Shown in pieces: positions 13,812 through 52,480 of a stretch of 64,000 bases of DNA (position 1 is the first letter of the stretch; each line of letters opens with the position of its first letter). The stretch is taken from IMG/VR virus record IMGVR_UViG_3300019757_000003, positions 1 to 64,000 of that record; one strand, written 5' to 3'. The notes below the pieces were generated by a model. That model had not been told where the DNA came from. It saw only the letters and a program-made list of their open reading frames with translations, and did no database searches. The stretch comes from a virus. A program made the position numbers and the translations under genes.

Positions 13812-14157
13812 TATGTACAGAATAGCATGGAGAAGTAAGCATACAGGGTATGAGGGTAATGGAGAATATTGTTTTAAAACACTAGAAGATGTTACTAGAG
13901 AAGTAGAGTGTGCTAATAATAAACGGTCTCAAGATGTATTTCATTGGTTTGAGAAAGAACCTAATGAGGATTAGATACAGAGTATTAGTCAAGCTGGACT
14001 TAAAAGGAAGATAGGTTACTACTAATCACAGTAACTGAATAGAGGCATTTGATACTGTCCCATAGCTATTTATGAATAAATAGGACAAGTAAACTTAACC
14101 AACTTACTGTTAAAACGCTGAGTACCTTTGGTGGGTACTAGTAAATTATAGTTACTG

Positions 14158-14235
14158 TCTAAAACAACCTAATATCACATTGAATGTGACTCTGTAGAGA
14201 AAAAATGGGTTTGAATCCCTCTAGGTTGTTTTAGA
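14158..14235 (+). ncRNA. cloverleaf-like structured element
   Basis: Perfect 14-bp closing stem (14158-14171/14222-14235) enclosing three hairpins, the last GGG-TTTGAAT-CCC resembling a T-arm. Confidence 0.4.
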
Positions 14236-14461
14236 GAGTGGCTTGTTACGAGTCACATAAGAAATAAACAACTATAAAATTCCAAGCTAAAGAGCAAAGA
14301 CTTGGAAATTATATGTAAGTCATATAAGAAATCAACATAGTGAATCTATGCTCTGTAAACAAGAAGGACAACTTTAAACCAACCTCTTCGGAGGTAAGAC
14401 CAATTTATATTATTTAAGTACATTTAGATGTATTTAATTATATTAAATTAAAGGATGAGAA

Positions 14462-22854: not shown

Positions 22855-23307
22855 AGTAGAAATACTTTAGTAACTTAAATTAAAGGATTGAAGATGACTG
22901 ATGGTAAAAATTACACTGAAGTTAATGAGAGAATAGCAAAAAAAGTAGAACAAGAGTTAGACAATTTTGAAAAAGGTGAAATAGTGATAATGTGGAATAA
23001 AGGAGACCTATATCCAAAAGTTACTAGATATAACAAAAAGTTAGGTGAAAGATACATAGATAACTCAGGACATAGTTACAACTTTGTAGCTAAGTTCACA
23101 GATAATCCTTGTGAGGTTGTACTATGAGAAAGTTAATATTACTAGGACTACTTGTGAGTTATTCTAACGCTGTCTCTCTCAAATGTGAGTTAGAACTTAA
23201 TAAAGCTACTAGAATTGCTATGGCTTATGCCATCAGTGGAGTTGGCTTTAAAGCTATGTTCATGGCTGATAGGAGAGCTAAAAAGATATGTGGTAAGGAA
23301 TATTAAA

Positions 23308-24399
23308 ATGAATATACAAGATTATGTTATAAATATAGAGGATAGTAGTTTACAAGATAGACTAAAGTTAAGACAAGTGTTACTTGATAATGGGCAAGAA
23401 ATATACAATGCTGAGCATTCTACTCTGCTAAAGGTACACTTAAAAAAAAGTACAGAGTATAGGCACTCTTACGACAGTTGGAGGGTAACTGCAACAGTTG
23501 AACCCAACATCTCACTAGAAAACTTTATACAAAAGTTTAAAACTAGTAATAAGCTAAGAAATTTAGCATTCTATAAAGATAGTGGTGAAGAATGGACTGA
23601 TGATGAGTGTACAACTATTAATGAATTCTTAGGAATCACTGATAATTATGTGGGAAATATAGCAAAAGATTTAAAATATTACTTTGATGATGGTGGCTCC
23701 TATACAAACACAGCTTACTCAAATTGGTTTACACAAGAGAAAGAAACTAATTTCTCTAATTGTCTACAGATAAAATATGAGGATTGTTTTATGGAAGAGT
23801 CTAAGAACCATAAAGTAAGAGAAAAAAAAGAGGTGGAACAAGAAATTAAAGTAGGTCAAATCTGGACTTCTAAGAGAACTGGCAAAGTTGTTCGTATCTC
23901 AGAGATTAGGCAAGTAACACCTTCAGGGAACCTTATCTTCGCTAATGGATTTAGTACTTTCATAAAAGAGTGTATATTTAGAGAAAGATTTATACTAAAA
24001 GATGTAGAACCTAACATACCAAATCTATGTTGTGAGACAGCATTACCAACTTGCTCTAATGAGCCAACAATACAAACAAATAAGGAAAATACAATGAATG
24101 CAACAAAAGAACAATTAGACTTAGAGCTAGTAAAGAGACAAATAGCACAACTACCAGCAGTTAAAGATGCTAAAGTTAAAAAAGTTAAAACAGACCTAGA
24201 GTCAAGAAAACCTTTTACTGTTGTAGTTTATGATGAAAATGGTAAGTACCACTCTACAGTATACTACAAAACACTAAAGAAAGCTGAGAGATTTAAAGAT
24301 GACTACTTAGCTACGAAATATGGTTATGGCTGTACAATTACTATCCATAAAGAAGTAAGTGCTTACAGTACTAAAGCTCCTATTGTAAAGGTTAAGTAA
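23308..24399 (+). CDS. modular hypothetical protein; contains the domain found standalone at 29042-29329
   Basis: AAGGA RBS then ATG 23308; a second in-frame RBS+ATG at 24094; segment RNLAFYKDSGEEWT...FDDGG...NFSNCLQIKYE. Confidence 0.65.
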   Translation: MNIQDYVINIEDSSLQDRLKLRQVLLDNGQEIYNAEHSTLLKVHLKKSTEYRHSYDSWRVTATVEPNISLENFIQKFKTSNKLRNLAFYKDSGEEWTDDECTTINEFLGITDNYVGNIAKDLKYYFDDGGSYTNTAYSNWFTQEKETNFSNCLQIKYEDCFMEESKNHKVREKKEVEQEIKVGQIWTSKRTGKVVRISEIRQVTPSGNLIFANGFSTFIKECIFRERFILKDVEPNIPNLCCETALPTCSNEPTIQTNKENTMNATKEQLDLELVKRQIAQLPAVKDAKVKKVKTDLESRKPFTVVVYDENGKYHSTVYYKTLKKAERFKDDYLATKYGYGCTITIHKEVSAYSTKAPIVKVK

Positions 24400-25116: not shown

Positions 25117-26674
25117 TGAATAAAGATGTAGTAAAGAAAGTAATTATTACACGCTACTAAATAACTAATAGACTCTAAACATAAAGAGTCTTTTAGTACA
25201 GTTAATAAAGAAGTAAAAATAAAGGAAAGAACTGGGTATTATATTATGGTCTTATGTGGCAGAGGGTGTTATTAAAGAGTTAGCTCCAAAAGAGCTTAGT
25301 GAACTAAATGAGTATATCTCTACAAATGAACTAAATAAGAAGGATTGTTTAAGTTGGTGTGGTGATAGAGACTTTGATTTAGCATTTAATTGGGATAGTG
25401 AACTAGACATAGCAGTAGCTAAACCTAGGTTAGAGAAGCTTTATAAAAAATTGAAAAAAGCTATAAAAAAGAGAGGTTACCTATTAGAGATAGACTTTGG
25501 AAGTTGGAATGATGAACAACTAGAGTTTTATGGTAACTTTATGTATATATTAAAAGAGAAGCAAACATCAAATAAAGGAAAGAGATGACAAGTAAACTAG
25601 AGTTTAAAAAACTAGAGAAAATAATGTCTTGGAAAGAAGTACAAGACTATCTTAAACGGAATAAAGGTTATAGACTCCCTTTAATTGATGAAATAGAGTC
25701 TATTAAGAATACAAATAACTATTGGTTAAATAGTGAAGTGATAGAGGTAGAGAATGGTATAGTACCTGCTAAAGTAGTACATACTAGCTTAGGTATGACT
25801 AATGTAAATACTCTATTAACAGTTATACTAATTAGAGCATTAGAGAGTGTACTATGGACTTCTAAAGTATATTACTTAGCTAAGATACCTCATTATGATG
25901 TTGACAAACCTTATAGTAAATCAGCTTTGTATGGATTAGACCATATTACACAATCTATGAATGCACACGATTTAGTTGTGTTTAAGGAGACTGAATGACA
26001 TTTGAAATTAAACTATTTAGTAAGAAATTTGGATACTACATAGAGTTGGACTACCATCAATATCTACATAAGAATGGTAAACTTAGAGATGACACACTAT
26101 ACAAAGGGAAACCTACTGGTTTGTTCAAGAGTAAGAAGAAAGCTTTAAAAGCTATAAAAGGATATTATAAAAGGAATAATATATGTTAGAGATATATAGA
26201 ATTTGGTTCAAAAGTCACATAATGGACATTATGATAGGTATGGGAGTATTTACTGCGATAGCTTCTGCTTTTCAAGAAGATGCCTTACAAGCAGGTGTAT
26301 TCCTAATAATAGGAACTATATGGTTTGTAGGTTCACTAATAATGAGTACACTACAAGAAATTCAAGACACTCAGTAAAGAGTCTAAAAAATCGCTACTAA
26401 GACCATAACAACACTCTATGGTCTATAAAGATGAACGCTGAAATAAGTGGAGTCCGAGAAGCACCTGAACTAGGTCAGTGATAACAACAAGTATAGTTTA
26501 CTAGGCATCGGCTAGTGTAGGTTAAAACCCTACAAATATATAATTTATATCGTTACGAGTTTTACAGTTCCCAGGAGTAATAAGTACACAGAGTACACTG
26601 CAAGTTAGCTGCAAAAGAAAGAAGAGATGGTAACTCTTGTTAAGCTGAGTGTCAACCACTGTGTACTTACCTAT

Positions 26675-26746
26675 GAAGTCTTAGCTCAGTAGGCAGAGCG
26701 AATCTACCAAGATTGCGTCACTGGTTCGATTCCAGTAGACTTCCCA
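26675..26746 (+). tRNA. tRNA-like RNA / pseudo-tRNA with a 4-nt anticodon loop
   Basis: Acceptor GAAGTCT/AGACTTC, TA, D-arm GCTC-AGTAGGCA-GAGC, stem AATCT-ACCA-AGATT, variable GCGTC, T-arm ACTGG-TTCGATT-CCAGT, then CCA. Confidence 0.75.
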
Positions 26747-27212
26747 GAGCACTACCTCAGAAGTGAGTTAAGAGAACTAGTCGTTTAATTGACGCAAGTA
26801 TGCCAACTATACTGACTTAGTTGGGCGTAATTAAAAATTAAAGGAATTAAAAAAATGACTAAACAAGAACTGCTAGAGTATATACAAAAAAGAGACGAAG
26901 AAGAACTGGAAGACATATTCTGTCTCATAGAATATGATGCCTTTCTTAATAAATCAGTTAAATATAGGGAACTTTTTGAAAAGAGTAACAACCCAGATGA
27001 TTTAATTACAGCAGTAGAGAACTATCTATTTGGCAACAAAGACTACTATGTAGATGTTAAGATCACTAATCAATCACCTAACAAAAAAGTAACATGGGTT
27101 TATGCAAAGTTTACTAAATACAGAGGTGGTAACTCTAGGTACTACAGCTTCTATGATTGGTCTGGATTTATCGAAAAATACTAAAAACAAAAACAAAATT
27201 AAAGGAATTAAA

Positions 27213-27617
27213 ATGGAAATAGATAAAGAGATAGTGCAAAAAGTACATAGAAATGGGTTCTACATAACTGAAGAAGTAATAGCTATTAAGTTCTTAAACA
27301 AGATTAAGACTTCTAAACAAAGAGGTATTAACTTTGAATTAACAATCCCTCAGTTTAGAAGATTGATGTTATTAAAAACTTGCCATTATAGTGGTATAGA
27401 ATTATACAAAGGTAAACCTAGAGATGAAGAAAATCCTAGTTTTAATTCTATGACAATTGATAGAATTGATAATACAATTGGTTACACTAAAGACAACAGC
27501 GTTGTAGCAGCCTATGGAGTGAACCAACTTAAAGGAGAGCTAGAGAGAAACAATAATGGTGTCTCTCTAAAACATCTGATTAAGATGGTTAAAGTTTTAG
27601 CTAAATACATGGATTAA
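27213..27617 (+). CDS. Srd-like (putative anti-sigma) / HNH-fold protein
   Basis: SKQRGINFELT...KTCHYSG...TIDRIDNTIGYTKDN...NQLKG; ATG 27213 after AAAGGA. Confidence 0.55.
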   Translation: MEIDKEIVQKVHRNGFYITEEVIAIKFLNKIKTSKQRGINFELTIPQFRRLMLLKTCHYSGIELYKGKPRDEENPSFNSMTIDRIDNTIGYTKDNSVVAAYGVNQLKGELERNNNGVSLKHLIKMVKVLAKYMD

Positions 27618-29041
27618 GGGTAATAAATGAAACAAAAGAGCATTAATGAGTTTGCTAAATTAGCAGTTAGAGACTACAAAGAGCTAGAGATTGGTAAAAT
27701 ATTTTATGAAGGTACTAAAGAAGTAGAGATACTATCAGACGTGTACCTAAGTGATAGTGGTAGTATATTTGTAGATGTAAAAGAAACCTTTGCAGATGGA
27801 TTTACCTACGAAACACCACTAAGCCTACGAGATCGAGGGATTATAAATGGGGGTTACAACCCTTGGCTGTTGTTTAGTAATAAGGAAATAGCTTTAGAAC
27901 ATAACTCAATTAATTGGCAAACTGGAACTAGATACTGTGAGGTACTGCGAGAACAAGTTCCTATATGGGTTCATAAACCTATGGGACAAAAGATGAGTAC
28001 TAATGAAGTACAAACTTTATTCAAACCTAAAGGGAATTAGATGAAACAAATAATAACAAATGGTGAATTGGAAATTGGCAAAAACTATTGGTGCAAACCT
28101 AAAATAAATACATACAGCAAAGCTATCATATTAACTGTAGGGGAACATATGAACAATAAATTCATTGGAAGCCATATATGGTGTACAGAAGACAATAATC
28201 AAGGACTAGAGAAATATACTATAATCGGTCCTGTTGAAGAACCAGATTGGGGTAAGTAGAGGTACTGCAAGTAGGTGTTTTGATGCACCTTTAAGTATTT
28301 TATATAATATTTAGAGGTGTGTCAAATTTTTAGACTTGTATGGACACGTTCCCTGTTTACTAATTAATCACTAGTAATCATATAATTAAACACAAATCTC
28401 TAATATCTTCCTCGGTGCTGTAATAGTAATAAAGCTGTCCTCTAGGTACACTATCCTTTGAATAAACAAAATAGTAAGCATACTCGTAAGAATGTAGAAG
28501 CTTTCAAAAATAACATTCCAGAGAGGTCAAGTACTCCATTATAATAGTATGGTGATTCGTATAAAAGTAATGCAACCTTTTAGGCTCACTACCTATTCAA
28601 TCAATTTTAAATAAAAACAAAGGGTCAAATATGACACAATTAACAATAACAGCAATTCTAGCACTATCTAACAAAAAAATGAATCCATCAATCAAACTCA
28701 AAAATATCAAAACAATCATTAAGAACGCAAAAGAGTCTTATGGTAACACTGGTAAGAAAATCTCACTAGGTAAAATAAATACTTGTAATGGACAACAATC
28801 AATCAAGTATCTAGCTGATGAAGATAAACTAGGTCTAGTAGAGGTTGAAGTGGAGTCTATCAGACTACAAGCTATCAATGTAACAGAGTGTACGCAAGGT
28901 ATAGTATTTGATAAGAAAGTGACAGAACTCATAGCATGCTCTCCAATACTTAGTAATCTAGGTAAAAGTGTGACAAGTACATTCCTCTAGGAATTACTAC
29001 AACTACCCTCTTTGGGTAGTATCTTAAATTAAAGGAACAAA

Positions 29042-39034: not shown

Positions 39035-39111
39035 GGGTCAGTGGTCTGAATAACAAAAGGCGACACTAAGGTATGTAAAGTGTACTGTGAGTAGAAATCT
39101 CATCTGAACCA
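39035..39111 (+). tRNA. degenerate tRNA-like cloverleaf with an 11-nt anticodon loop
   Basis: Acceptor GGGTCAG/CTGAACC (6 of 7 pairs), D-arm GTCT/AGGC, stem ACACT/AGTGT with loop AAGGTATGTAA, T-arm GTGAG-TAGAAAT-CTCAT. Confidence 0.5.
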
Positions 39112-48247: not shown

Positions 48248-49144
48248 GTGAAAAATAAAGATGAATTTGGTGAAAGAATCAAAGCTTATGAAAGTGAGTA
48301 CGAACAGAGAATACCATATAATGAGTATATTATTGTAAGGATTGATGGTCATAAATTTAGCAGATTTACTAAAGGATTTAAAAGACCTTTTGATACTATC
48401 CTATCTGATACATTTAGAGAGATTACAAGTGCTTTAATTAAAGAGTTTAATGCTGTCGTAGGTTACACACAAAGTGATGAAATTACGTTAGTTATACCAC
48501 CTAACTATGGTAGACACTTAAACAATATTTGTGAAGATACTACTAACAATCAAATCTTTGGAGGTAGAACTCAAAAAATGTCTAGTCTAATCTCAGCATT
48601 TACTACTATGAAGTTTAATGAGATTCTAGCTACACAAGTAAAAGCTAGAAGAGATACGATAAAACGTTCACTTGACTATATAGATGCAGAGAGATTGTTA
48701 GATGAGATGCAAGATACTTTAGGCTATTGGAAACTTATAGACACTAAAAAAGTTGGAAAAGCTTGGTTTGATTGTAGAGTATTTGGAGTACCTGATGAAA
48801 CAGAAGCGTTTAACTCTGTACTATGGAGAATGCACGATTGCACTAAGAATAGTTACTCTCAATTTGCCTATGCTTATTGCTCACATAAAAGTCTACTAAA
48901 TAAGACTGGTCAAGAGATGGTAGAGTTCTGTAAAGAAACTACTGGTAATGATTGGAGTGAAACTGAAGAGAGATTTAAGTATGGAACTATTGTTAAGAAA
49001 CAAGACTACACTAAACCTAAAACAGATGAAGAACACTCACAAGAAACTATTAGAACTAAAACAGTATTCATTAGTAAGAAGTTGAGTTATTCAGAAGAAA
49101 ATGTAGAGTTTTTATTATGTAAGAAATTGGAGGAAGTTAAATGA
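48248..49144 (+). CDS. thg1: tRNA(His) guanylyltransferase Thg1 / Thg1-like 3'-5' polymerase
   Basis: VRIDGHKFSRFT, YTQSDEITL, FGGRTQKMSS, FDCRVF, WRMHDCTKNS. Confidence 0.9.
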   Translation: MKNKDEFGERIKAYESEYEQRIPYNEYIIVRIDGHKFSRFTKGFKRPFDTILSDTFREITSALIKEFNAVVGYTQSDEITLVIPPNYGRHLNNICEDTTNNQIFGGRTQKMSSLISAFTTMKFNEILATQVKARRDTIKRSLDYIDAERLLDEMQDTLGYWKLIDTKKVGKAWFDCRVFGVPDETEAFNSVLWRMHDCTKNSYSQFAYAYCSHKSLLNKTGQEMVEFCKETTGNDWSETEERFKYGTIVKKQDYTKPKTDEEHSQETIRTKTVFISKKLSYSEENVEFLLCKKLEEVK

Positions 49145-50587: not shown

Positions 50588-50688
50588 CTAGCTAATGTCG
50601 GAAGCACAGAGTACTGAAGAGTACAGACTGGTAAGTCCGATTCTTACGATTGAGGAAGGAAGGAATGGTTCGAGTCCATTCAGCTAGA
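50588..50688 (+). ncRNA. tRNA-mimic structured RNA (canonical T-arm and acceptor stem, non-canonical interior)
   Basis: CTAGCT/AGCTAG acceptor; GAATGG-TTCGAGT-CCATTC T-arm; interior hairpins GTACT-GAAG-AGTAC and GACT-GGTA-AGTC, plus TCGGA/TCCGA. Confidence 0.55.
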
Positions 50689-51358: not shown

Positions 51359-52480
51359 ATGGAAAACAATAAGAGAAAGTTAGTATCCATAAGAGAGATT
51401 AAAGATTTATTGCCTATTAAAGGTGCAGATTTCATTGAAAACGCAATTGTAGATGGTTGGGGGTTAGTCGTTAAAAAAGGAGAGTTTCAAGTAGGAGATA
51501 TGTGCGTATTTTTTGAAATTGATTGTTTCTTACCTATAGAAGAGAGATACTCATTTTTAGGTAAAACTACTGAATTTAGAAATGCTCAAGGATATAGACT
51601 AAAAACTATTAAGCTGAGAAAGACTTTATCACAAGGATTGGCTTTACCATTGAGTATGTTCCCAGAAATCAAAAGACCTAAGCTAGGCCTAGAAGTAACA
51701 GAACTACTTAAAGTAAGAAAGTGGGAACGTATTGAGAACGTACAGAATGTGCAAAAGTCGAGTAAAGTAAGAGTATTTCCTTCAGAGATACCTAAGACAG
51801 ACCAAGAGAGAATTCAAAACCTAACTTGGTACTTTGACAAATTACAAGATATGGAATTTGAAGAAACCTTAAAGTTAGATGGAAGTTCTATGACTTGCTA
51901 CAAGACTACTGATAAAACACCTTTCTTACAAAGAGTAATCAGATTATTTAAAACAGGAAAATACACTATCCCTCACTTTGGAGTGTGTTCCAGGAATGTA
52001 GAACTATACCAAGATAAACCTTTCTTCAAACTATTCACTAATTCAGATAAAGCCTCTGAATTTAGTACTACAACCTTTTGGGAACTAGCTATTAGAGAAG
52101 ATTTAGAGTCTAAGTTACCATTTGGTTACGCTATTCAAGGAGAACTACTAGACACTAAAATCCAAAGCAATCATGAGAAAGTAGATAGACCAGAGTACAG
52201 AATCTTTGATGTGTATAATATTTTAGAGAAAAGATACTTAACACCTGCAGAGAGGAAAATCTTCCTAGAAACTACTAAGTTAGACTACTTAAGTGTTCCT
52301 ATTGTAGAGCCAAGTATTAAGATATTCAAAAAATGTACTACAGTACAAGATTTACTAAAAAGAGTAGAAGGTATCTCTATGAATCCTCAAACAGTATCTG
52401 AAGGTAGGGTCTATAAGAGTGTAGATGGTAAAATTACATTCAAAGCTGTGAGTAACAAGTACTTAATGAAAGAAGACTAA
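51359..52480 (+). CDS. RNA ligase (Rnl2/DRB0094 family)
   Basis: N-terminal IKGADFIE...FFEID...SQGLALP; motif I TLKLDGSSMT, IQGEL, FDVY, SEGRVYK, FKAVSNKYL. Confidence 0.88.
   Translation: MENNKRKLVSIREIKDLLPIKGADFIENAIVDGWGLVVKKGEFQVGDMCVFFEIDCFLPIEERYSFLGKTTEFRNAQGYRLKTIKLRKTLSQGLALPLSMFPEIKRPKLGLEVTELLKVRKWERIENVQNVQKSSKVRVFPSEIPKTDQERIQNLTWYFDKLQDMEFEETLKLDGSSMTCYKTTDKTPFLQRVIRLFKTGKYTIPHFGVCSRNVELYQDKPFFKLFTNSDKASEFSTTTFWELAIREDLESKLPFGYAIQGELLDTKIQSNHEKVDRPEYRIFDVYNILEKRYLTPAERKIFLETTKLDYLSVPIVEPSIKIFKKCTTVQDLLKRVEGISMNPQTVSEGRVYKSVDGKITFKAVSNKYLMKED

What the first reader, a model, noticed from the sequence alone, without database searches (positions are those of the whole stretch)
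26675..26746. Near-perfect tRNA whose anticodon loop is only 4 nt
Seen: perfect acceptor, D and T arms with the usual invariant bases (T8, A14, GG in the D-loop, TTCGATT). The anticodon arm is AATCT-ACCA-AGATT, three nucleotides short, so no normal anticodon is presented. The base after the acceptor stem is C. Established: C73 is the bacterial tRNA-His discriminator and Thg1-like enzymes add G-1 opposite it; a Thg1 is encoded at 48248. Inference: intact stems argue against random decay. This may be a non-decoding tRNA mimic: a decoy for anticodon nucleases or synthetases, or an RNase P/Z processing signal.
Basis: partly seen in the sequence, partly recalled or inferred. Interest (0 to 1): 0.7.

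Follow-up and report, generated by a model that had tools for sequence, protein, structure and literature searches.

The report
Non-decoding tRNA look-alike in a phage
This uncultured 114-kb phage carries one tRNA-shaped gene that keeps a perfect tRNA body but has only four bases where the codon-reading loop should be; related phages carry similar anticodon-less copies, so it is probably kept for its shape, most likely as an RNA-cutting signal, and not for translation.

Summary
Window 26675-26744 (+) matches the Rfam tRNA model at 46.9 bits, with 7/7, 4/4, 5/5 and 5/5 Watson-Crick stem pairs. Its anticodon loop is ACCA, 4 nt instead of 7. It is the only tRNA hit in the complete genome.

It is not an assembly slip: a second, partly divergent metagenome contig carries the same loop. 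A sister phage with 95-100% identical flanks has the same acceptor stem, D stem, T loop and C73. Its interior is replaced, and the arm is again capped by four bases (AUAA).

Two distant relatives keep perfect acceptor, D and T stems with a broken anticodon arm. All 27 canonical tRNAs in related phages encode 3'-CCA; none of the five aberrant elements has CCA at 74-76.

Best reading (about 0.42): a non-decoding tRNA-body RNA cut by RNase P and RNase Z, acting as a processing and end-forming module like plant mitochondrial t-elements or mascRNA. Rivals are a functionless relic, a tRNA-body decoy, and a Thg1-like/HisRS substrate.

The Thg1 link is chemically feasible but gets no comparative support. 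Nothing on expression could be tested. This scan has noted similar non-decoding tRNA mimics in other phages.

The parts
26675..26744 (+). tRNA-like RNA gene, 70 nt including discriminator C73. Acceptor 26675-26681/26737-26743; D arm 26684-26699; anticodon arm 26701-26714; T arm 26720-26736.
   Evidence: Rfam RF00005 at 46.9 bits; ARAGORN tRNA-???; cloverleaf as minimum-energy fold; all stems Watson-Crick.
26706..26709 (+). Four-base loop ACCA in place of the 7-nt anticodon loop, closed by the 5-bp stem AATCT/AGATT.
   Evidence: Repeated in the independent contig L002. The sister allele in L003 has AUAA on a 7-bp stem.
26581..26669 (+). Long hairpin with an 11-bp closing stem that ends exactly 5 nt before the tRNA-like 5' end. 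Proposed 3'-end protector of the upstream RNA after RNase P cleavage.
   Evidence: Fold z -2.2. L003 and G002 also have 7-bp hairpins ending 5 nt before their tRNA-likes (in one search's 60-nt contexts). With 100-nt contexts G000 and L003 keep the 5-nt tail but G002 folds with a 3-nt tail. Random genome sites show this (60-nt contexts) at 1.4%. Four of 13 canonical tRNAs in relatives show it too.
26745..26854 (+). 110-nt leader between the tRNA-like and the next ORF (start 26855), with a strong 3' hairpin and weaker upstream stems. It is nearly identical in the sister phage although the ORF itself is only about 85% identical in DNA.
   Evidence: Alignment (two substitutions and one single-base indel); fold.
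26400..26424 (+). 8-bp hairpin just after the upstream ORF stop (26377), conserved in L003. No T-run follows, so it is not a classical intrinsic terminator.
48248..49144 (+). Bacterial-type Thg1-like protein. Possible but untested partner of the C73 tRNA-like.
   Evidence: PF04446 at 4e-27. Best solved relative is the B. thuringiensis TLP 4KGK at 1.9e-24, against Candida Thg1 at 5.7e-4. Absent from 27 relatives.
51359..52480 (+). Rnl5-type (Naegleria NgrRnl-like) RNA ligase. Shown as RNA-repair context only.
   Evidence: PF09414 plus the PHA02142 OB domain; 5COT at 2e-61; present in 6 of 27 relatives.

Best explanation
The element is a transcribed tRNA-shaped RNA that no longer decodes. It is kept for its tRNA body: the acceptor/T-arm helix plus the D/T elbow.

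It lies inside a long run of same-strand early or middle genes, and no promoter motif was found in its gap. It is therefore probably made as part of a polycistronic transcript (inferred).

The proposed mechanism, all steps inferred:
1. Host RNase P cuts at G1. The upstream RNA is left ending in a stable hairpin plus 5 nt, which would resist 3' exonucleases.
2. Positions 74-76 are CAG, not CCA, so an RNase Z-type enzyme can cut after C73. This releases the 110-nt conserved leader and the downstream mRNA.
3. The excised 70-nt RNA may be a by-product or have a further role.

The anticodon arm plays no part in this, so it is free to shrink or be replaced, as is seen.

What is shown: the anatomy, the conservation pattern, the absence of CCA at 74-76 and the hairpin spacing.
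For: 1. The body is perfect and the loop is 4 nt.
2. In the sister phage L003 the flanks are 95-100% identical and the acceptor stem, D stem, T loop and C73 are unchanged. The interior is replaced by a different arm that is again capped by four bases.
3. In distant relatives G002 (portal 54% identical) and G012 the acceptor is 7/7, the D stem 4/4 and the T stem 5/5 Watson-Crick. The anticodon arm has no stem in G002, and a 4-bp stem with a 6-nt loop in G012. G012 reads A19 in the D loop and U56 in the T loop, which could pair in place of the usual G19-C56 elbow contact.
4. All 27 canonical tRNAs in related phages encode N73-CCA. None of the 5 aberrant tRNA-likes has CCA at 74-76. CCA blocks RNase Z (my knowledge), so its absence suits endonucleolytic 3' cleavage.
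5. In G000 and L003 a hairpin ends exactly 5 nt before the 5' end in both 60/49-nt and 100-nt contexts; in G002 it does so in the 60/61-nt fold only (3 nt with 100 nt). The random-site rate is 1.4%.
6. The 478-nt gap holds no recurring promoter-like 10-mer and no sigma-70 or terminator match on the + strand.
7. Precedent exists: t-elements are read as RNase P/Z signals (PMC1920247), and a 7-bp acceptor makes a tRNA-like module an RNase P and CCA-adding substrate (PMC4201824).
Against: - There are no expression, RNA-end or cleavage data.
- Only one close relative spans the element. G000 and L003 are not independent of each other.
- The distant tRNA-likes may not be orthologues. Synteny support is weak: a single 35%-identical neighbouring protein in G012.
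- Ascertainment bias applies. The tRNA model finds elements with intact acceptor, D and T arms more easily than those broken elsewhere.
- The -5 hairpin also precedes canonical tRNAs in the clade, so it shows tRNA-type processing context, not a special role.
- The G002 hairpin spacing depends on fold context (5-nt tail at 60 nt, 3-nt tail at 100 nt), which weakens it as independent evidence.
- The L003 T stem carries an extra pair and a bulge, and that copy scores only 28 bits.
- One such element per genome is few for a punctuation system. A second acceptor/T minihelix exists at 50588-50687, but the count is not above shuffles.
Confidence: 0.42

Rival explanations
1. It is a functionless relic. 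A former phage tRNA gene was disabled by a 3-nt loss in the anticodon loop and has not yet been deleted.
For: The only defect in the window copy is the short loop, as expected soon after a deletion. The CCA triplet sits one base out of register, at 73-75, which could be a second small deletion. The L003 copy looks more degraded at 28 bits. Relatives carry other weak tRNA-like remnants.
Against: Two closely related phages with near-identical flanks both carry non-canonical arms that are nevertheless paired. Point decay cannot produce that much change in about 55 nt while the flanks stay 98-100% identical. In G002 the anticodon stem has four or more mismatches while 16 of 16 other stem pairs are intact. 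Five of five aberrant elements lack CCA at 74-76 yet keep perfect adjacent acceptor stems. No bacterial or IMG/VR tRNA with this acceptor stem was found as a recent source.
Confidence: 0.25
2. It is a tRNA-body decoy or sponge. The RNA binds a host tRNA-directed defence effector or tRNA-binding enzyme through its acceptor/T/D body. It cannot enter decoding and offers no cleavable anticodon loop.
For: The body is conserved while the arm is variable or sealed. The anticodon arm changes sharply between two near-identical phages, as in an arms race. tRNA-cleaving defences and phage tRNA counter-measures are well documented (PMC10264068, PMC11464382 and PMC13056530). The phage invests in RNA repair with a Thg1-like protein and an Rnl5 ligase.
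Against: A single gene would have to compete with the whole cellular tRNA pool. Known phage counter-tRNAs are functional decoders with 7-nt loops. No defence or anti-defence gene is adjacent: PHROGs gives only an HNH endonuclease nearby. No direct evidence exists.
Confidence: 0.17
3. It is a substrate for the Thg1-like protein and HisRS. After RNase P cleavage the phage enzyme adds G-1 opposite C73. The G-1:C73 pair then lets HisRS bind or charge an RNA that cannot decode.
For: C73 is present and -1 is T. The phage enzyme is a bacterial-type Thg1-like protein. BtTLP adds G-1 opposite C73 at kcat/KM 5500 M-1 s-1, and the same addition to a C73 tRNA-Phe was measured, though it was kinetically less favoured than 5'-end repair (PMC3061083). 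HisRS charges minihelices carrying G-1:C73 (PMC9976931). Among 28 genomes of the clade, only this phage has Thg1, and no canonical tRNA-His or other tRNA gene is present.
Against: Thg1 lies 21.5 kb away. Analogous tRNA-likes in relatives have A73 and their genomes lack Thg1. CCA is not encoded at 74-76. These enzymes prefer repairing 5'-truncated tRNAs, so general repair explains the gene. No use for a charged non-decoder is evident.
Confidence: 0.08
4. It is an unusual decoder. The arm breathes to a 4-bp stem with a 6-nt loop, or a 3-bp stem with an 8-nt loop (CUACCAAG), and reads two or four bases to shift the reading frame.
For: ARAGORN models a 6-nt loop with the anticodon 'cc'. The 8-nt register would give C32-U33-ACCA-A-G.
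Against: The 5-bp stem with the tetraloop is the minimum-energy and centroid fold. The sister allele has an unrelated loop. Long ORFs read normally under the standard code. CCA is not encoded at 74-76, unlike every true tRNA of the clade.
Confidence: 0.03
5. It is a sequencing or assembly error that dropped three bases from a normal tRNA gene.
For: None beyond the oddity itself.
Against: The independent contig L002 carries the same loop and then diverges from the window after 1794 bases. The ACCA loop cannot be derived from a canonical loop by one 3-nt deletion without leaving C at position 37 (direct reading).
Confidence: 0.02

Closest known systems
Plant mitochondrial t-elements (Forner et al. 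2007, PMC1920247)
   Same: Both are tRNA-like folds lying between or beside co-transcribed genes, cannot decode, and are read as cis-signals for RNase P and/or RNase Z that create mRNA 5' and 3' ends.
   Different: They occur in an organelle, not a phage. Their transcript ends were mapped experimentally, while nothing is mapped here. They have no sequence relationship to this element.
mascRNA / MALAT1 3'-end module
   Same: A tRNA-like RNA with a reduced anticodon loop is cut by RNase P. The cut forms the 3' end of the upstream RNA, which a nearby stable structure protects. The 3' side is cut by RNase Z.
   Different: It is a vertebrate nuclear system, and the upstream protector is a triple helix, not a hairpin. 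This is an analogy only.
Bacterial and phage YrlA Y RNAs (PMC4201824; Rfam RF02553)
   Same: They are non-decoding RNAs with a tRNA-like acceptor, D and T module. M. smegmatis YrlA is cut by RNase P and receives CCA. D. radiodurans Yrn1 has a 6-nt 'anticodon loop'. A relative of this phage (G011) has a weak YrlA-like hit.
   Different: In YrlA the RNA ends form a long Ro/Rsr-binding stem at the anticodon-arm position. Here the ends are at the acceptor stem. No YrlA match and no TROVE/Rsr gene occurs in this genome.
Canonical phage-encoded tRNAs, including those that evade anticodon nucleases (PMC10264068, PMC11464382)
   Same: The cloverleaf, the tertiary-contact bases and the genomic setting among early genes are the same. 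Relatives of this phage encode ordinary tRNAs.
   Different: Those tRNAs have 7-nt loops, decode, and in this clade encode CCA in 27 of 27 cases. This element has a 4-nt loop and no CCA at 74-76.
Histidine-accepting viral tRNA-like structures, TLS-His (PMC8127992, title and abstract only)
   Same: A viral RNA mimics the tRNA acceptor end for a host tRNA enzyme without decoding.
   Different: TLS-His are pseudoknotted 3' ends of plant RNA virus genomes. This is a cloverleaf gene in a DNA phage, and histidylation here is only a hypothesis.

Membership tests
Canonical tRNA (Rfam RF00005) | Score above the family's gathering threshold, with a 7-bp acceptor, D arm and T arm | tested here: met
   46.9 bits against 29. 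All stems are Watson-Crick, and U8, A14, G18G19 and TTCGATT are present.
Canonical tRNA (Rfam RF00005) | 7-nt anticodon loop with U33 and a purine at 37, presenting a triplet | tested here: not met
   The loop is ACCA, 4 nt. ARAGORN can assign only a 2-base anticodon.
Canonical tRNA of this phage clade | Encoded N73-CCA 3' end | tested here: not met
   27 of 27 canonical tRNAs in relatives end in CCA. This element reads C73-CAG.
t-element-type processing signal | Non-decoding tRNA-like fold in a gap between same-strand genes | tested here: met
   The element lies in a 478-nt gap between ORFs ending at 26377 and starting at 26855, both on the + strand. No promoter or terminator match on the + strand.
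t-element-type processing signal | Transcript ends that coincide with the RNase P and RNase Z sites of the fold | not testable with these tools
   No RNA data are available. The phage is uncultured.
YrlA / Y RNA | Match to RF02553 and a Ro60/Rsr (TROVE) gene in the genome | tested here: not met
   No YrlA hit at E<=1 and no TROVE hit in the whole genome.
tRNA-His type HisRS substrate | C73 discriminator | tested here: met
   C at 26744. Bacterial His identity is G-1 plus C73 (PMC9976931).
tRNA-His type HisRS substrate | G-1, either encoded or added, and a GUG anticodon | tested here: not met
   The base at -1 is T and there is no anticodon. Addition by the phage Thg1-like protein is possible in principle but untested.
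Thg1-like protein / tRNA-like functional pair | Co-occurrence of the enzyme and the RNA across related genomes | tested here: not met
   Thg1 is found in 0 of 27 relatives. G002 and G012 carry tRNA-likes with A73 and no Thg1.
Anticodon-nuclease-evading phage tRNA | A functional 7-nt anticodon loop that differs from the host tRNA at nuclease-recognition positions | tested here: not met
   The loop is 4 nt, and it is unrelated in the sister allele.

The most novel reading that the evidence does not exclude
The phage's bacterial-type Thg1-like enzyme adds G-1 opposite C73 of this anticodon-less RNA. This creates the G-1:C73 mark that lets host HisRS bind or charge it. The phage would then make a histidine-identity tRNA mimic that never enters decoding, either to occupy HisRS and uncharged-tRNA sensing or to donate histidine outside the ribosome.
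Probability: 0.07. Interest if true: 0.85.

Novelty: new variant of a known kind. Interest (0 to 1): 0.52.

Why it matters
Phage tRNA genes are usually explained by codon supply or by escape from tRNA-cleaving defences, and both need a working anticodon. This element, its sister allele and the anticodon-arm-less copies in distant relatives suggest another use of the tRNA shape in phages. Selection appears to act on the acceptor/T/D body and on the absence of an in-register CCA, and not on the anticodon.

If the processing-signal reading holds, phages use the host's tRNA-trimming enzymes to punctuate and stabilise their own polycistronic mRNAs, as organelles do. Annotation pipelines that label such genes 'tRNA-???' or 'pseudo' would then be hiding a class of regulatory RNA.

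This scan has noted comparable non-decoding tRNA mimics in other phage genomes, so the phenomenon may be broad and under-described.

Tried and rejected
**Searches that found nothing**
- GenBank phages by blastn on 25500-28000: no match.
- IMG/VR pattern scans for the D arm plus anticodon arm, the T arm plus acceptor, an acceptor-framed pattern and the conserved trailer: all empty.
- IMG/VR protein scans with the DNA polymerase, the upstream 137-aa ORF and the 394-aa ORF: none confirmed.
- The same acceptor-framed pattern in 185,579 bacterial genomes gave one chance match that is not a tRNA. No host tRNA source was identified.
- DNA search of the five closest large relatives with 25200-28300: nothing. 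The closest relative, G001 (portal 80% identical), is a fragment that appears, from the position of its portal gene, not to reach this region.

**Tests with negative or uninformative results**
- Protein-level synteny around the tRNA-likes of G002 and G012 gave only one weak shared neighbour.
- Co-occurrence of Thg1 with the tRNA-likes failed.
- The Y RNA reading is rejected: no YrlA and no TROVE gene.
- No repeated promoter motif lies in the gap.
39035-39111 folds no better than shuffles (z -0.45).
- A genome-wide scan for 12-bp acceptor/T minihelices with a canonical T loop found only 26675 and 50588, not above shuffles.
- An 11-nt match of the arm to 98141 on the + strand is within chance expectation.
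- MAFFT could not align the five tRNA-likes well enough for formal pair counting. The stems were checked by script instead.

The four contigs carrying the identical downstream protein could therefore not be fetched.

Full report
**What the window is.** The window is the first 64 kb of a complete 114,270-bp IMG/VR phage record. It has 123-bp direct terminal repeats and 32% G+C, and it reads normally under the standard code. The portal and major head proteins match PHROG families of the kind found in N4-like podoviruses, and the portal is about 32% identical to portals of cultured Vibrio phages. The DNA polymerase is only about 26% identical to any cultured phage. No GenBank phage matches the region in DNA.

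**The observation.** Positions 26675-26744 (+) form a cloverleaf:

| Part | Sequence |
|---|---|
| Acceptor stem | GAAGTCT / AGACTTC |
| Positions 8-9 | T8, A9 |
| D arm | GCTC-AGTAGGCA-GAGC |
| Position 26 | G |
| Anticodon arm | AATCT-ACCA-AGATT |
| Variable region | GCGTC |
| T arm | ACTGG-TTCGATT-CCAGT |
| Discriminator | C |

- All 21 stem pairs are Watson-Crick.
- ARAGORN calls it 'tRNA-???' with a two-base anticodon.
- Rfam's tRNA model gives 46.9 bits against a gathering score of 29, and shows 4 nt where the model has 7.
- The unconstrained minimum-energy fold is the cloverleaf with the tetraloop.
- It is the only tRNA hit in the whole genome. A permissive Rfam scan of the window at E<=5 finds nothing else.
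- The base at -1 is T.

**It is not an assembly error.** The single metagenome scan returned two contigs from one sample. L002 begins at window 26702, inside the anticodon stem, and repeats ATCTACCAAGATT. It is identical to the window for 1794 bases and then diverges, so it is a separate variant with the same loop.

**The sister allele.** L003 (1012 bp) comes from a close sister phage.
- The upstream gene end is identical, the 110 nt downstream of the element differ at two bases plus a single-base indel, and the next ORF is 75% identical in protein.
- At the same place it has a tRNA-like with the same acceptor stem, T8/A9, D stem, T loop and C73.
- Everything from the D loop to the 3' T-stem strand is different. 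The anticodon arm is UGUGGUC-AUAA-GACUAUG, a 7-bp stem with three G-U pairs capped by four bases. The T stem has gained one pair and a bulge.
- ARAGORN again reports '???', and Rfam gives 28 bits.

A block of about 55 nt that is roughly half different cannot arise by point decay when the flanks are 98-100% identical. It must be a replacement patch, and the replacement is again a paired arm with a four-base cap.

**Distant relatives.** The portal protein recovered 80 IMG/VR relatives. I scanned the 27 large ones for tRNAs.
- Many carry ordinary tRNAs.
- G002 (portal 54% identical, 111 kb) has a single hit at 46.7 bits that ARAGORN rejects. Its acceptor stem GTACCAT/ATGGTAC, D stem and T stem (ACTGG/CCAGT, the same as in the window) are perfect. 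The 17 nt at the anticodon-arm position cannot pair.
- G012 has a 28-bit element with perfect acceptor, D and T stems. Its anticodon arm is CCUC-GUUUAA-GAGG, and it reads A19 in the D loop and U56 in the T loop, which could pair in place of the usual G19-C56 elbow contact. It lies 1.4 kb downstream of a homologue of the window's 394-aa ORF at 23215-24399, which is weak positional support.
- G018 has a further element with a perfect acceptor and T arm and a scrambled centre, next to two normal tRNAs.

In four elements the acceptor (7/7), D (4/4) and T (5/5) stems are intact, and the anticodon arm is aberrant in four different ways. There is a caveat: the search model favours elements with intact bodies, so part of this pattern is ascertainment.

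**A second class mark.** All 27 canonical tRNAs found in the relatives encode N73-CCA. None of the five aberrant elements has CCA at 74-76. The trailers after the discriminator are CAG in G000 and L003, CAA in G002, AAC in G012 and CCT in G018a. In G000 and L003 a CCA triplet begins one base early, at 73-75.

From general knowledge, CCA at 74-76 blocks RNase Z. CCA-less precursors are cut endonucleolytically just after the discriminator.

**Context.**
- The element sits in a 478-nt gap between same-strand ORFs, with the stop at 26377 and the next start at 26855.
- No sigma-70-like promoter or intrinsic terminator lies on the + strand there.
- No 10-mer from the gap recurs in the genome except the ribosome-binding motif AAATTAAAGGA. 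This fits read-through transcription.
- A long hairpin at 26581-26669 ends exactly 5 nt before G1.
- L003 and G002 also have 7-bp hairpins ending 5 nt before their elements in 49- to 61-nt contexts. With 100-nt contexts G000 and L003 keep the 5-nt tail, but G002 folds with a 3-nt tail.
- Only 1.4% of random genome sites show such a hairpin.
- Four of 13 canonical tRNAs in relatives show it too. It therefore marks a clade-wide tRNA-processing context and is not unique to the mimics.

**Most likely mechanism (confidence about 0.42).** The RNA is kept for its tRNA body and is processed like a tRNA.
1. RNase P cuts at G1 and leaves the upstream RNA ending in a hairpin plus 5 nt.
2. An RNase Z-type cut after C73 frees the conserved leader and the downstream mRNA.
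3. The anticodon arm is irrelevant and drifts or is swapped.

This works like plant mitochondrial t-elements (PMC1920247) and like the MALAT1/mascRNA module (my knowledge). A 7-bp acceptor is what made M. smegmatis YrlA a substrate for RNase P and CCA addition (PMC4201824). All cleavage steps are inferred.

**Rival readings.**
- **Relic (0.25).** The window copy has only one lesion, and its CCA is off by one base. The sister allele, the G002 pattern and the clade-wide absence of in-register CCA beside perfect acceptor stems argue against pure decay.
- **tRNA-body decoy (0.17).** The sharp allele difference in the arm and the phage's RNA-repair genes fit an arms race. Those genes are a BtTLP-type Thg1-like protein and an Rnl5-type ligase. 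A single gene against the whole tRNA pool is a weak sponge, and a target-like anticodon loop is absent.
- **Thg1-like protein and HisRS (0.08).** This is chemically sound. BtTLP adds G-1 opposite C73, and the reaction was also measured on a C73 tRNA-Phe, though less efficiently than 5'-end repair. HisRS charges minihelices bearing G-1:C73. However, Thg1 is absent from all 27 relatives, the other mimics have A73, and the gene is 21.5 kb away.
- **Odd decoder (0.03) and assembly error (0.02).** Both are disfavoured.

**Family membership.** The element is tRNA-derived and passes the Rfam threshold. It fails the defining decoding feature and the clade's encoded CCA. It is not a Y RNA: there is no RF02553 hit and no TROVE gene. 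I file it as a new variant of the known kind 'non-decoding tRNA-like processing or mimic element'.

**Earlier notes from this scan.** They describe comparable anticodon-less tRNA mimics in other phages, including copies with a four-base cap. They gave me the t-element lead, and I read that paper's abstract myself. They are not independent evidence.

**Limits.** No RNA-level data exist for this uncultured phage.

Noticed in passing
window 50588-50687 (+): A second tRNA-like minihelix: a 6-bp acceptor CTAGCT/AGCTAG stacked on a 6-bp T stem with the canonical loop TTCGAGT and discriminator A, and a non-tRNA interior. The fold z-score is -3.2. It lies between small ORFs in the Thg1 / DUF4326 / RNA ligase cluster. 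Rfam's tRNA model does not score it.
   Followed up: partly
L097:1044-1156 (G011, IMG/VR relative): A YrlA (Y RNA-like) hit at 40 bits, E 6e-6, below the gathering score of 69. It has a clear T arm and the D arm UAGCUCAGUUGGUAGAGC, so it is a possible phage Y-RNA-like RNA in this clade.
   Followed up: no
L115:2027-2374 (G005, IMG/VR relative): ARAGORN calls a phage-encoded tmRNA with the tag peptide VNNMNFNPTAELAAA, next to a tRNA-Met.
   Followed up: no
L087, L088, L089, L103 (relatives) and window 26581-26669: In this phage clade many tRNA genes are preceded by a hairpin of at least 7 bp that ends exactly 5 nt before the tRNA 5' end. This holds for 4 of 13 canonical tRNAs, for G000 and L003, and for G002 in 60-nt contexts, against 1.4% of random sites.
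   Followed up: partly
L095:1-2340 (G002:C1:32849-35190): About 2.3 kb around the G002 tRNA-like has no ORF longer than 88 aa. It also holds a separate T-arm-like motif, GAGAGGTTCGATTCCTTT, 55 nt upstream, so it may be a larger non-coding RNA island.
   Followed up: no
window 14140-14240 (+): A very stable long hairpin (z -5.4) that encloses a GGGTTTGAATCCC T-arm-like motif.
   Followed up: no
window 28496 onward versus L002:1795 onward: The co-occurring variant contig L002 is identical to the window for 1794 bases and then diverges abruptly, marking a mosaic boundary between strains. Both L002 and L003 break or diverge at the tRNA-like, so it is a hotspot of strain variation.
   Followed up: no
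window 51359-52480 and 48248-49144: The RNA ligase is of the Rnl5 / Naegleria NgrRnl type (5COT, 2e-61). The Thg1 homologue is closest to the B. thuringiensis Thg1-like protein 4KGK. Together they look like an RNA 5'-end and nick repair set. Thg1 is unique to this phage among 28 related genomes.
   Followed up: partly
   Followed up: partly
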